Source: Escherichia coli (GTDB lineage Bacteria; Pseudomonadota; Gammaproteobacteria; Enterobacterales; Enterobacteriaceae). From it: 64,000 nt of DNA. The stretch is taken from assembly GCF_016026235.1 (NCBI RefSeq), contig NZ_CP065613.1; one strand, 5' to 3'. Below, piece after piece: positions 43,969-46,900 of the stretch. Position 1 is the stretch's first letter. Each line of letters starts with the position of its first letter. Position numbers: made by a program.

Positions 43969-46900
43969 TAAATGCGTCTGACAGCAAAACAGGTGACATG
44001 GCTGAAAGTTTGCCTGCATCTTGCCGGATTGTTGCCGTTTCTCTGGCTGGTCTGGGCGATTAATCACGGTGGATTGGGTGCCGATCCGGTGAAAGATATT
44101 CAGCATTTTACTGGTCGCACTGCACTGAAATTTTTGCTGGCGACCTTGTTAATCACACCTCTGGCACGCTACGCAAAACAGCCGTTATTGATACGCACTC
44201 GCCGCCTGTTAGGCTTATGGTGCTTTGCCTGGGCGACACTGCATTTAACCAGTTACGCATTGCTGGAGCTGGGCGTGAATAATCTGGCGTTATTAGGTAA
44301 GGAGTTAATTACCCGGCCTTATTTAACGTTAGGTATTATCAGCTGGGTAATTTTGCTTGCGTTAGCGTTCACTTCAACCCAGGCGATGCAGCGAAAACTC
44401 GGTAAACACTGGCAACAGTTGCATAACTTCGTCTATCTTGTCGCGATCCTGGCCCCAATACATTATTTGTGGTCAGTGAAGATTATTTCACCGCAGCCAC
44501 TCATCTACGCTGGGCTGGCGGTACTGCTTTTAGCCTTACGGTATAAGAAGTTGCTTTCCCTTTTTAACCGTTTACGCAAGCAGGTTCACAACAAATTATC
44601 TGTATAACTTCATATTGCCGACAAAGTACGCGTTATCCCTGCCGGATGCGGCGCGAGCGCCCTATCCGGCCTACGCAGATCACATCAAGTTATGTTTCGT
44701 TTGTCATCAACCTCAAATCATCGACATAATTTATTTTATTTCAATAAGATAGATAAGCACACCTGAGAGAACTATTCTCTTGTCTCCTAAGAGTTGTTGC
44801 ATTTTGTTATATGTTACAATATAACATTACACATCATATACATTAACTCTGGAGGAAACTGTTTTGGCGATTCGTCTTCATAAACTGGCTGTTGCTTTAG
44901 GTGTCTTTATTGTTAGCGCTCCTGCCTTTTCGCATGGTCATCACTCACACGGCAAACCCTTAACAGAGGTCGAACAAAAAGCTGCTAATGGTGTTTTTGA
45001 TGATGCCAATGTACAAAACCGAACGCTCAGTGACTGGGATGGAGTCTGGCAATCCGTTTATCCTTTACTGCAAAGTGGCAAACTTGACCCCGTCTTTCAG
45101 AAGAAAGCGGATGCAGATAAAACCAAAACATTTGCTGAAATTAAAGATTATTATCGCAAAGGTTATGTGACAGACATCGAGATGATTGGCATTGAGGACG
45201 GCATTGTCGAATTCCATAGAAATAATGAAACAACATCCTGTAAATATGATTACGATGGATACAAAATACTCACCTATAAATCAGGCAAGAAAGGCGTTCG
45301 TTACTTATTCGAATGTAAAGATCCTGAAAGCAAAGCCCCTAAATATATACAATTTAGCGATCATATAATTGCACCACGAAAATCATCTCATTTTCACATT
45401 TTTATGGGTAATGATTCCCAACAGTCTTTATTGAATGAAATGGAAAACTGGCCAACGTATTATCCCTATCAGTTGAGTAGCGAAGAAGTGGTCGAGGAGA
45501 TGATGTCTCATTGATTTTTTTGCGCTGACTTCAGTTATTTAACAGAACAGTGCCTGGTAGTAACAACAATAATTTGCCAAGACAAATAAGTAAGACAAAC
45601 TCAGACACGCTCATACTTGAGTCGTGTCTTTTTTATTATGTCTGTAGAAAAAAAATGCGAAAAAGGCGAACAATAAATACACAACTCAGCCATACAGACT
45701 GGCAGCACAAATGTTTCCAAGAGCAAGTCATCTGTCATGGTAAAGCTAACCAGAAATATAGGTTAATTTTGGTGTTTAAACCTTTTTTACTTGTTAGTAT
45801 GATACAAAGGCTTTCAAAAAAGCTGGGAAATTCAACAACTCTTGGAAATTATGGACTTTGTCCCGCGGCTTTAATCTGACGGCCGCGTTCCTTTTTTGAC
45901 TCAATTATTGACCCCTTCTCTACGCAACTTCAGTTCCCGCCAGCAACTTTGCGGCAGTTTCATAGGATCAATGTCTAAAAGAATAATGGTGACCGATAAG
46001 AAAACGACTGAATAACTGTAGATTTTCGCTCGAAACCTTCCTGTCAGCTCCATAGCGAATCAAGTGCTGAATGTCACAGTATCGAACAGAAAACAGTGAC
46101 GATCTAACCCTTCAAGAATATTCTACGATTGTTCTGTTTAGGAAAAGCAAGGCGGGAAGTCAGGAGATAAGTCATTGATAAAGTGGCGGAGAGAGGGGGA
46201 TTTGAACCCCCGGTAGAGTTGCCCCTACTCCGGTTTTCGAGACCGATGATACAGAGTCGAAAAATCAAAGAGTTAAAAATTTTTCTTGGAAAAAATGTCT
46301 TAAAATCGTACACGAAAAATCAATGAATTACATAACATTAAAGAAGAATATTCCAAGCCTTCTTGAGTCCACCACCTGTTTTCAGGTGTCATTCAGACGT
46401 GATTTGCCCCAGATTGGGAAAGCACGCTTTTTTCTCAGCTTATTCCGTTTTGCCTGTGTGTTGAATAATTCCACTGCAGTTATATAAAATCGGTAACGGC
46501 TGGAAATCATTCAATACTCGCACTATCGAAAGTTCACCAGCCAACCGCAGCACGTCCTGCATACGTCGTGTCTGCGGTTTTTCTTTTTCGCTTACATTGT
46601 GTCTGGTTCTTCCGGCCACTCAATATCAGGTGCAGTTGATGTATCAACACGGTTCAGCAACACCCGATACTTCTTCCAGGCTTCCAGCAACGAGTTTTCT
46701 TCCTCCGTTGCGATCTCCAGATCTACAGCATCCTGAAGTGGCGCAATATGCTCACTGAATTCCTGGATGTAGAACTGTGTGGTGACGGTCTTCCAGCCAT
46801 TCGGCTCCTGCTGTATCGAAGCATACCAGGCTATTTCAATATCGCTATGCTGCGGCAGCATTTAACCCCTTGTAATTCATCGCCATAATTGATTTAATTC

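What the first reader, a model, noticed from the sequence alone, without database searches (positions are those of the whole stretch)
45515..46183. About 670 bp with no convincing gene between zinT and the tRNA fragment
As far as I recall the E. coli K-12 order (zinT, yodB, serU), the yodB cytochrome b561 gene should follow zinT, but no such ORF is present. The only tracked ORF (45550-45879) is low-complexity with no ribosome-binding site. The stretch is AT-rich and may be deletion scar, phage end sequence or an unannotated small RNA.
Basis: inference. Interest (0 to 1): 0.3.

Follow-up and report, generated by a model that had tools for sequence, protein, structure and literature searches.

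The report
Ordinary zinT–serU spacer lacking yodB
The 669 gene-less bases are the normal spacer between zinT and the serU tRNA gene in the roughly 42% of E. coli/Shigella-type genomes that never carry the accessory gene yodB; they hold terminators, a tRNA trailer shared with phages, and one unusually conserved 124-base block that might be a small RNA gene.

Summary
Window 45515-46183 (669 bp, 38.7% GC) lies between the zinT stop and a 62-nt 3' fragment of serU, with no yodB and no credible ORF.

It is not a deletion scar. The stretch is 99.8% identical in thousands of E. coli genomes. Its 222-bp left part is one of two species-wide alleles: 2271 of 5426 genomes have it, and 3114 have K-12's 995-bp yodB block instead. 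E. albertii is collinear with the yodB-less form. yodB follows zinT in none of 78 other species. Prophage-free strains have the same 668-669 bp running into an intact serU, with nothing annotated.

Contents:
- The zinT intrinsic terminator (45603-45637).
- An almost invariant 124-nt block (45775-45898). It starts at a promoter-like site and ends at a hairpin plus U6 whose K-12 counterpart is a Term-seq 3' end.
- A 278-bp serU trailer (45906-46183). K-12 data place a Rho termination region here. Lambdoid phages ev099 and mEp332 carry this trailer in their attP.
- The serU core (46184-46245), marking the junction with such a prophage, now an ipaH-bearing remnant.

Verdict: ordinary. The one lead is a possible unannotated small RNA in the conserved block.

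The parts
44864..45514 (+). zinT coding sequence (left-hand context)
   Evidence: Pfam ZinT, E 3e-85. Annotated as zinT in matching E. coli genomes. 97.8% identical to K-12.
45515..45736 (.). Haplotype-specific 222-bp spacer, the 'yodB-less allele'. K-12 has a 995-bp block holding yodB at this position.
   Evidence: blastn against K-12. Present in 2271 of 5426 complete E. coli genomes at 92-99.5% identity. The yodB block is in 3114 of 5426. Collinear with the E. albertii spacer.
45550..45879 (+).
   Evidence: Frameshift or stop codons in 4 of 9 strains. No significant family hit. Not annotated by PGAP in any fetched genome.
45603..45637 (+). zinT intrinsic terminator: an 11-bp bulged hairpin at 45603-45629, followed by UUUUUAUU
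   Evidence: MFE -17.9 kcal/mol, z -4.1, 0 of 200 shuffles fold as well. A hairpin sits at the same offset (81-92 nt after the zinT stop) in K-12 and E. albertii, with one compensatory A-U to G-C pair.
45775..45898 (+). Almost invariant 124-nt block; candidate small transcription unit of about 88 nt
   Evidence: A 131-bp query over it is single copy in 5417 of 5426 genomes and at least 99% identical in 5029. It has only 2 singleton variants across 14 aligned sequences, whereas its flanks have 8 variable sites in 38 nt and 17 in 151 nt. E. albertii lacks 45783-45897.
45775..45803 (+). Sigma-70-like promoter match, TTTAAA-17-TATGAT, at the left edge of the block
   Evidence: Consensus scan, 9 of 12 matches. 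This is a consensus match only; no TSS data could be obtained.
45864..45897 (+). Intrinsic terminator: a 7-bp GC-rich stem at 45864-45887, then UUCCUUUUUU
   Evidence: Folding. The K-12 counterpart is a Term-seq 'orphan' 3' end at 2043181(+), which maps to window 45897, detected in two of three conditions (Adams et al. 2021, PMC7815308, suppl. file 1).
45906..46183 (.). 278-bp serU-proximal flank, also carried as the attP arm of serU-integrating lambdoid phages
   Evidence: Phages ev099, PhiR70_1 and mEp332 and three phage-like plasmids match 45906-46245 at about 97%. Free phage genomes match 45906-46440 without a break. About 550 extra copies occur in E. coli genomes.
45899..46049 (-). Polymorphic zone that contains the mapped Rho termination region for serU read-through (K-12 2043225(-), about window 45941)
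   Evidence: Rho score 39, p 2e-241, with a resolution of hundreds of nt (PMC7815308 suppl. file 2). 17 variable sites. Only 2023 genomes are at least 99% identical.
46050..46183 (-). Conserved serU 3' trailer; C-rich, G-poor and unstructured (rut-like)
   Evidence: At least 99% identical in 4514 genomes. 83% identical to E. albertii and 93% to a cryptic Escherichia clade. The first 60 nt have 18 C and 6 G. The minus strand folds worse than shuffles, z +1.9.
46184..46245 (-). 3'-terminal 62 nt of tRNA-Ser(CGA) serU; the attachment core at the prophage junction
   Evidence: 100% identical to K-12 serU nt 29-90. No intact tRNA in the window. Identity to the tRNA ends at 46245, where phage sequence continues.
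46246..46440 (.). Phage-side attP arm, contiguous with the core in ev099 and mEp332; start of the degenerate prophage
   Evidence: Followed by a tail-fibre-assembly remnant at 46592-46861 (Pfam Caudo_TAP, E 2e-26) and an IpaH-type NEL ligase ORF.

Best explanation
Window 45515-46183 is the native zinT-serU intergenic spacer of the yodB-less haplotype of E. coli/Shigella. It encodes no protein.

Its working parts are transcriptional punctuation for two convergent genes. On the plus strand, zinT transcripts stop at a hairpin plus U-run at 45603-45637, and a second terminator at 45864-45897 stops anything further. On the minus strand, in genomes with an intact serU, read-through from the strongly expressed tRNA gene runs into a C-rich unstructured trailer (46183 down to 46050) and is stopped by Rho around 45941.

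In this genome an ev099/mEp332-like lambdoid phage integrated into serU. It left the resident 3' 62 nt of the tRNA (46184-46245) next to the spacer. Because that phage family carries its own copy of the 278-bp trailer plus core in attP, the right-hand part of the spacer looks like phage DNA.

Shown here: the alleles and their frequencies, collinearity with E. albertii, the hairpins, the phage homology and the conservation profile. Taken from K-12 literature and transferred by 96-100% identity: the in-vivo 3' end and the Rho dependence. Inferred: that the terminators act the same way in this genome.
For: The 901 bases around the site are 99.8% identical in many E. coli genomes, and 2279 genomes cover at least 80% of that query. 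The two alleles are found in 2271 and 3114 of 5426 genomes. Prophage-free strains ampC_0069, AR_0137 and EF7-18-58 have zinT, then 668-669 bp, then intact serU and mtfA, with nothing annotated between. yodB does not follow zinT in any of 78 other species. E. albertii aligns across the K-12 breakpoint at 45736/45737. The ORFs are broken and match no family. Published work already uses yodB presence or absence as a clone marker in ST410 (PMC10786849).
Against: The 124-nt block 45775-45898 is far more conserved than a terminator needs to be, so 'punctuation only' may be incomplete. The transcript data come from K-12, which has yodB upstream, and not from this genome. The bicyclomycin mapping uses 800-nt windows, so the position of the Rho region is approximate. 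Absence of yodB outside the 64-kb window was not checked for this genome.
Confidence: 0.85

Rival explanations
1. The conserved block 45775-45898 is an unannotated, E. coli/Shigella-specific small RNA gene. It would be transcribed from its own promoter (-35 at 45775, -10 at 45798, start near 45810), end at the U6 terminator (45897) as an RNA of about 88 nt, and bind Hfq. This adds to the main explanation and does not replace it.
For: The near-invariant stretch runs exactly from the promoter-like -35 to the end of the U-run, while both flanks carry deep haplotype-linked polymorphism (population counts). The block is equally conserved in yodB-plus and yodB-less haplotypes, so it is not merely the yodB terminator. 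K-12 has a Term-seq 3' end at the homologous U-run. An RNA named yodB.serU.IGR appears in significant Hfq RIL-seq chimeras in K-12, with 39 and 33 fragments. Its SIC scores of 0 with k=1 and 0.5 with k=2 mean it was always second in the chimera. Its U-tract length is 6 (Bar et al. 2021, PMC8175672, suppl. table 1).
Against: No TSS evidence could be found. The promoter is only a 9-of-12 consensus match in AT-rich DNA, where 9 such sites were found against 4.2 expected. The Term-seq signal is weak, about 2000 reads against about 9e5 for DsrA, and in K-12 it could be the end of a long yodB 3' UTR. The RIL-seq model gave sRNA scores of only 0.010 and 0.046, and the strand and coordinates of that RNA were not available. 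There is no Rfam match. The fold is not better than shuffles (z -1.3). With no sequence variation there can be no covariation test. The block is absent from E. albertii and a cryptic Escherichia clade.
Confidence: 0.3
2. The stretch is a scar left by deletion of yodB from a K-12-like ancestor.
For: K-12 and 57% of E. coli genomes have yodB at this position. The interval is 773 bp shorter than in K-12.
Against: No yodB remnant is detectable. The 222 bp are not a subset of the K-12 sequence. Apart from the terminator hairpin, which lies at the same offset, they are unrelated to it. The allele is old, with up to 8% internal divergence. E. albertii is collinear with it across the breakpoint. yodB is next to zinT in no other species examined.
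Confidence: 0.04
3. The whole stretch is phage or island end sequence brought in by the element inserted at serU.
For: 45906-46440 is contiguous and about 97% identical in the free phages ev099 and mEp332. About 10% of E. coli genomes hold a second copy of the arm.
Against: Phage homology stops at 45906, and the left 391 bp are never found on phages. The same 278 bp flank an intact serU in prophage-free strains, and in diverged form in E. albertii. Campbell integration at the core leaves the resident copy on the zinT side; this last point is an inference from the ev099 gene order.
Confidence: 0.08
4. A small protein is encoded here: the 109-aa ORF, its 26-aa C-terminal sub-ORF starting at 45799, or one of the 35-50-aa ORFs.
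For: The ORFs exist. The 26-aa sub-ORF lies inside the invariant block.
Against: The 109-aa ORF is broken in 4 of 9 strains. No ORF matches a protein family. None has a Shine-Dalgarno sequence (read from the sequence). The 35-aa ORF loses its ATG in E. albertii. The only K-12 difference in the block is non-synonymous in the 26-aa frame. PGAP annotates nothing here in any genome fetched.
Confidence: 0.03

Closest known systems
E. coli K-12 MG1655 zinT-yodB-serU interval (NC_000913.3 2,042,026-2,043,467)
   Same: Same flanking genes. The right-hand 447 bp (45737-46183) are 96% identical, including the orphan plus-strand terminator and the serU trailer. A terminator-type hairpin sits about 90 nt after the zinT stop in both.
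   Different: K-12 has 995 bp holding yodB (cytochrome b561 family) where the window has 222 unrelated bp. The K-12 copy of the zinT-proximal hairpin lacks the U-run.
attP regions of tRNA-integrating lambdoid phages (Escherichia phages ev099, mEp332, PhiR70_1)
   Same: The phage carries the 3' part of the target tRNA gene, so integration rebuilds the gene. The gene order is xis-int ... attP ... tail-fibre genes. The window shows the tail-fibre-side junction.
   Different: The identity with the chromosome is unusually long. It covers 62 nt of tRNA plus 278 bp of trailer beyond the tRNA 3' end, 340 bp in all. The window sequence is the resident bacterial copy, not the phage copy (inference).
Intergenic or 3'UTR Hfq-bound sRNA candidates from RIL-seq (for example PspH, first listed as pspG.qor.IGR)
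   Same: An intergenic RNA with a U-tract that is found second in Hfq chimeras.
   Different: Very few chimeras and partners, a low model score, and no validation. The strand is unresolved.
3'ETS-leuZ (functional tRNA 3' trailer)
   Same: A conserved sequence directly downstream of a tRNA gene, and an IGR entry in RIL-seq data.
   Different: No evidence that the serU trailer is stable or binds Hfq. It lacks a U6 run within 150 nt of the tRNA (sequence). This is a lead from memory and was not tested.

Membership tests
yodB (cytochrome b561 family) gene or pseudogene | Detectable protein-level similarity to YodB | tested here: not met
   tblastn of K-12 YodB against the window gave a best E of 0.47 elsewhere in the window, and only a 12-residue match at E 4.1 inside the interval.
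Intrinsic (Rho-independent) terminator, site 45603-45637 | Stable GC-containing stem-loop directly followed by a U-run, on the strand of the upstream gene | tested here: met
   -17.9 kcal/mol, z -4.1, followed by UUUUUAUU, 88 nt after the zinT stop. The hairpin is retained with one compensatory change in E. albertii.
Intrinsic (Rho-independent) terminator, site 45603-45637 | RNA 3' end at the U-run in vivo | not testable with these tools
   No Term-seq 3' end is listed near the K-12 counterpart. It is established knowledge that zinT is Zur-repressed in the media used, and the K-12 allele lacks the U-run anyway.
Intrinsic (Rho-independent) terminator, site 45864-45897 | Stem-loop plus U-run, and an in-vivo 3' end | tested here: met
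   7-bp stem followed by UUCCUUUUUU. The Term-seq 3' end at K-12 2043181(+) falls on the last U of the run. The sequence differs from the window at one position upstream of the hairpin.
Hfq-dependent trans-acting sRNA gene (block 45775-45898) | Own promoter and primary 5' end | tested here: inconclusive
   Only a 9-of-12 consensus match. The TSS data sets tried held no entry or were not available.
Hfq-dependent trans-acting sRNA gene (block 45775-45898) | Terminator hairpin with a long U-tail, and association with Hfq | tested here: inconclusive
   A U6 tail is present. 'yodB.serU.IGR' appears in Hfq RIL-seq chimeras with a U-tract of 6 and is always second in the chimera, but the strand and coordinates are not given and the model scores are 0.010 and 0.046.
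Hfq-dependent trans-acting sRNA gene (block 45775-45898) | Sequence conservation above the intergenic background | tested here: met
   2 singleton variants in 124 nt, against 25 variable sites in the 189 flanking nt. At least 99% identity in 5029 of 5417 genomes.
Hfq-dependent trans-acting sRNA gene (block 45775-45898) | Identified base-pairing targets | not tested
   The RIL-seq partner table (Melamed 2016) is not held.
Prophage-chromosome junction at a tRNA gene (att site) | Block of identity to the 3' part of the tRNA, after which the sequence continues as in the free phage | tested here: met
   46184-46245 equals serU nt 29-90. 45906-46440 is contiguous in ev099 and mEp332.
Prophage-chromosome junction at a tRNA gene (att site) | Second att copy with an intact tRNA, plus an integrase, at the far end of the element | tested here: not met
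   There is no second copy of 45515-46245 and no tRNA within the window. The element runs past base 64000 or is rearranged. In phage ev099 the integrase lies about 2 kb from the arm.
Rho-dependent termination region (serU trailer) | C-rich, G-poor, unstructured RNA, and bicyclomycin-sensitive termination | tested here: met
   C18/G6 in the first 60 nt. Folding z +1.9. K-12 Rho score 39, p 2e-241, at 2043225(-), with coarse 800-nt windows. Transferred to this genome by 96% identity.

The most novel reading that the evidence does not exclude
The near-invariant 124-nt block (45775-45898) is absent from E. albertii and from a cryptic Escherichia clade, and is identical across both deep haplotypes of E. 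coli. It may be a young, species-specific, Hfq-associated small RNA gene with its own promoter. It would have escaped annotation because in K-12 it looks like the tail of a long yodB 3' UTR.
Probability: 0.3. Interest if true: 0.4.

Novelty: already known. Interest (0 to 1): 0.18.

Why it matters
The main value is as a caution. K-12 gene order is not the species norm at this locus. yodB is an accessory gene present in about 57% of complete E. coli genomes, so its absence is not a lesion.

Two minor points may interest specialists. First, serU-integrating lambdoid phages carry 340 bp of identity with the chromosome (tRNA 3' part plus 278 bp of trailer). Integration therefore rebuilds the tRNA and also its downstream Rho-terminated trailer, and the prophage ends up flanked by long direct repeats. 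Second, a 124-nt island of near-perfect conservation, with promoter-like and terminator ends, is a cheap and testable small-RNA candidate common to E. coli and Shigella.

Tried and rejected
- Rfam at E up to 1 over 44000-48000 found nothing inside the interval except tRNA-fragment look-alikes (Plastid-psbl-rps4 and tmRNA pieces over 46187-46238) and a chance sX4 hit at E 0.67.
- Pfam and NCBIfam searches on seven ORFs gave no significant hit.
- The terminator scan missed both terminators because their loops or bulges exceed its limits. Folding recovered them.
- I looked for TSS evidence for the candidate small RNA. Thomason 2015 is not held. The Cappable-seq and SMRT-Cappable-seq supplements have no entry at 20430xx-20434xx. 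The APERO and Nanopore paper supplements are not held.
- The Melamed 2016 RIL-seq tables are not held, so the partner and strand of yodB.serU.IGR stay unknown.
- A full-text search for the hairpin sequence and for 'yodB-serU' or 'zinT-serU' returned no paper. A zinT plus RIL-seq search gave nothing relevant.
- I considered a MITE or repeat origin for the 112-nt segment missing in E. albertii and rejected it. The segment is single copy (5501 places in 5417 genomes) and has no terminal inverted repeats.
- Covariation testing of the second terminator is impossible because it does not vary. The first terminator yields only one compensatory pair (117 of 500 shuffles reach the observed value), which is supportive but weak.

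Full report
**Observation.** zinT ends at 45514. Bases 46184-46245 are the 3'-terminal 62 nt of tRNA-Ser(CGA) serU on the minus strand. ARAGORN finds no intact tRNA anywhere in the window. The 669 bp between them are 38.7% GC, against 49.7% for the window. They contain no YodB-like coding sequence (tblastn). The only long ORF (45550-45879, 109 aa, GTG start) has no significant family match. It runs through a terminator hairpin and is interrupted by a frameshift or stop in 4 of 9 strains compared.

**What it is.** The 901 bases around the site are 99.8% identical in many complete E. coli genomes, and 2279 genomes cover at least 80% of that query. Against K-12, identity runs to the zinT stop codon and resumes at 45737. 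In between, the window has 222 bp where K-12 has 995 bp holding yodB.

Both forms are common. The 222-bp allele is in 2271 of 5426 genomes at 92-99.5% identity. The yodB block is in 3114. Strains with the 222-bp allele and no prophage (ampC_0069, AR_0137, EF7-18-58) show zinT, then 668-669 bp, then an intact serU and mtfA. PGAP annotates nothing in the spacer. A published ST410 study already uses yodB presence or absence as a clone marker (PMC10786849).

**Polarity.** In 78 other enterobacterial species whose zinT loci were fetched, yodB is never within 4 kb of zinT. The E. albertii spacer aligns with the yodB-less form. The alignment runs uninterrupted across the K-12 breakpoint at 45736/45737 (local score 48; shuffles mean 17.6, maximum 26). 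A hairpin sits 81-92 nt after the zinT stop in all three lineages. Apart from that hairpin, the 222 bp and K-12's zinT-yodB spacer are unrelated. This is an old dimorphism in which the yodB-less form resembles the ancestral arrangement. It is not a deletion scar.

**Anatomy, left to right.**

1. 45603-45637 is a bulged 11-bp hairpin followed by UUUUUAUU. It folds at -17.9 kcal/mol with z -4.1 and has one compensatory A-U to G-C change in E. albertii. This is the zinT intrinsic terminator.

2. 45638-45774 is variable filler with indels and haplotype-linked SNPs.

3. 45775-45898 is a near-invariant block.
   - A 131-bp query over it is single copy in 5417 of 5426 genomes and at least 99% identical in 5029.
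   - For the next 131 bp only 2023 genomes reach 99%, and 1290 lie at 90-95%.
   - In 14 aligned sequences the block has two singleton variants. The 38 nt to its left have 8 variable sites and the 151 nt to its right have 17.
   - It begins at a promoter-like TTTAAA-17-TATGAT and ends at a 7-bp GC stem plus UUCCUUUUUU.
   - The K-12 counterpart of the last U is a Term-seq 'orphan' 3' end at 2043181(+), seen in two of three conditions at low read counts (Adams et al. 2021, PMC7815308).
   - E. albertii lacks 45783-45897, a gap bounded by CCTTTT repeats. A cryptic Escherichia clade lacks everything from the zinT stop to 46037.

4. 45906-46183 is the serU-proximal flank.
   - On the minus strand it is the tRNA trailer. 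The first 60 nt are C-rich and G-poor (18 C, 6 G) and unstructured (z +1.9).
   - K-12 bicyclomycin data place a strong Rho termination region at 2043225(-), about window 45941, with Rho score 39 and p 2e-241. The resolution is coarse.
   - The serU-nearest 134 nt are well conserved: at least 99% identical in 4514 genomes, 83% to E. albertii and 93% to the cryptic clade.

5. 46184-46245 is the serU core.

**Phage connection.** Free lambdoid phages ev099, mEp332 and PhiR70_1 and three phage-like plasmids carry 45906-46245 at about 97% identity. In ev099 and mEp332 the match runs without a break from 45906 to 46440 and picks up again in the tail-fibre-assembly gene. In ev099 the order is xis, int, IS fragments, an AraC-family gene, the 278-bp arm plus core, then tail-fibre genes.

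The window therefore shows the tail-fibre-side junction of such a prophage integrated in serU. The prophage is now degenerate. It carries a tail-fibre-assembly remnant, a methyltransferase ORF, the Shigella sRNA CssrB and an IpaH-type NEL ligase ORF. Neither the other end nor the rebuilt serU is in the window.

About 550 extra copies of the arm in E. coli genomes fit attL/attR duplication. By the logic of Campbell integration, the copy next to zinT is the resident one. That is an inference.

**The open lead.** The block's conservation exceeds what a terminator needs, and it is the same in yodB-plus and yodB-less haplotypes. An RNA listed as yodB.serU.IGR occurs in significant Hfq RIL-seq chimeras in K-12, with 39 and 33 fragments. 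It was always second in the chimera and has a U-tract of 6.

I found no TSS evidence, no Rfam family and no paper describing it. I put about 0.3 on an unannotated sRNA of about 88 nt. The alternative is that the block is a conserved terminator or insulator at the convergence point of zinT (or yodB) and serU transcription.

**Verdict.** This is an ordinary, already explicable intergenic spacer of a common haplotype, so interest is low. Its 'deletion scar' reading is wrong, its 'phage end' reading is partly right, and its 'small RNA' idea is untested but has a concrete, cheap experiment attached.

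Noticed in passing
window 47595-47774 (-): Full-length match to Rfam CssrB, 'Chromosome-encoded Shigella sRNA B' (230 bits, E 4e-52). It lies inside the prophage remnant, between a methyltransferase ORF and the ipaH-type ORF. It indicates a Shigella-type genome.
   Followed up: no
window 48200-49543 (+): 447-aa ORF with a TTG start, LRR repeats and a C-terminal NEL E3-ligase domain (Pfam NEL, E 4e-77). This is an IpaH-family effector gene carried on the serU prophage remnant. It is possibly truncated at the N-terminus.
   Followed up: partly
window 46635-46838 (-): Rfam IS009 hit just above the gathering score (129 bits against 117). It overlaps the tail-fibre-assembly remnant (ORF 46592-46861, Pfam Caudo_TAP). 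It probably reflects the coding sequence and not an RNA gene.
   Followed up: no
window 45906-46245; L091, L092, L093, L095: serU-integrating lambdoid phages and phage-like plasmids share 340 bp with the chromosome (62 nt of tRNA plus 278 bp of trailer). This is far more than the tRNA 3' part usually found in attP. It gives integrated prophages long direct repeats and rebuilds the tRNA's Rho-terminated trailer.
   Followed up: partly
window 45783-45897 versus L004 (E. albertii): E. albertii lacks a segment of about 112 nt that is bounded in E. coli by CCTTTT(TT) direct repeats. Whether it is an insertion in E. coli or a deletion in E. albertii is unresolved. The segment coincides with most of the invariant block.
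   Followed up: partly
window 44606-44671: Sub-threshold Rfam naRNA4 (REP-derived) match on both strands, in the msrQ-zinT spacer. It looks like a REP-type palindromic element.
   Followed up: no
window 44800-44830: An AT-rich palindrome (tgttatatgttacaatataaca) lies just upstream of zinT. It looks like the Zur box expected for this zinc-regulated gene. This comes from memory and was not tested.
   Followed up: no
L088 (E. coli EC2001), L083 (G6/7), L003 (Escherichia sp. MOD1-EC7003): The locus is a hotspot of rearrangement. An IS903B copy replaces zinT and most of the yodB block in EC2001. An IS21-family element interrupts the spacer at window-equivalent 45991 in G6/7. A cryptic Escherichia clade has zinT joined almost directly to window-equivalent 46038, and a different element has cut serU after about 14 nt.
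   Followed up: partly
window 46918-47586 (+): 222-aa class I SAM-dependent methyltransferase ORF (Pfam Methyltransf_12, E 4e-9) inside the prophage remnant, next to CssrB.
   Followed up: no
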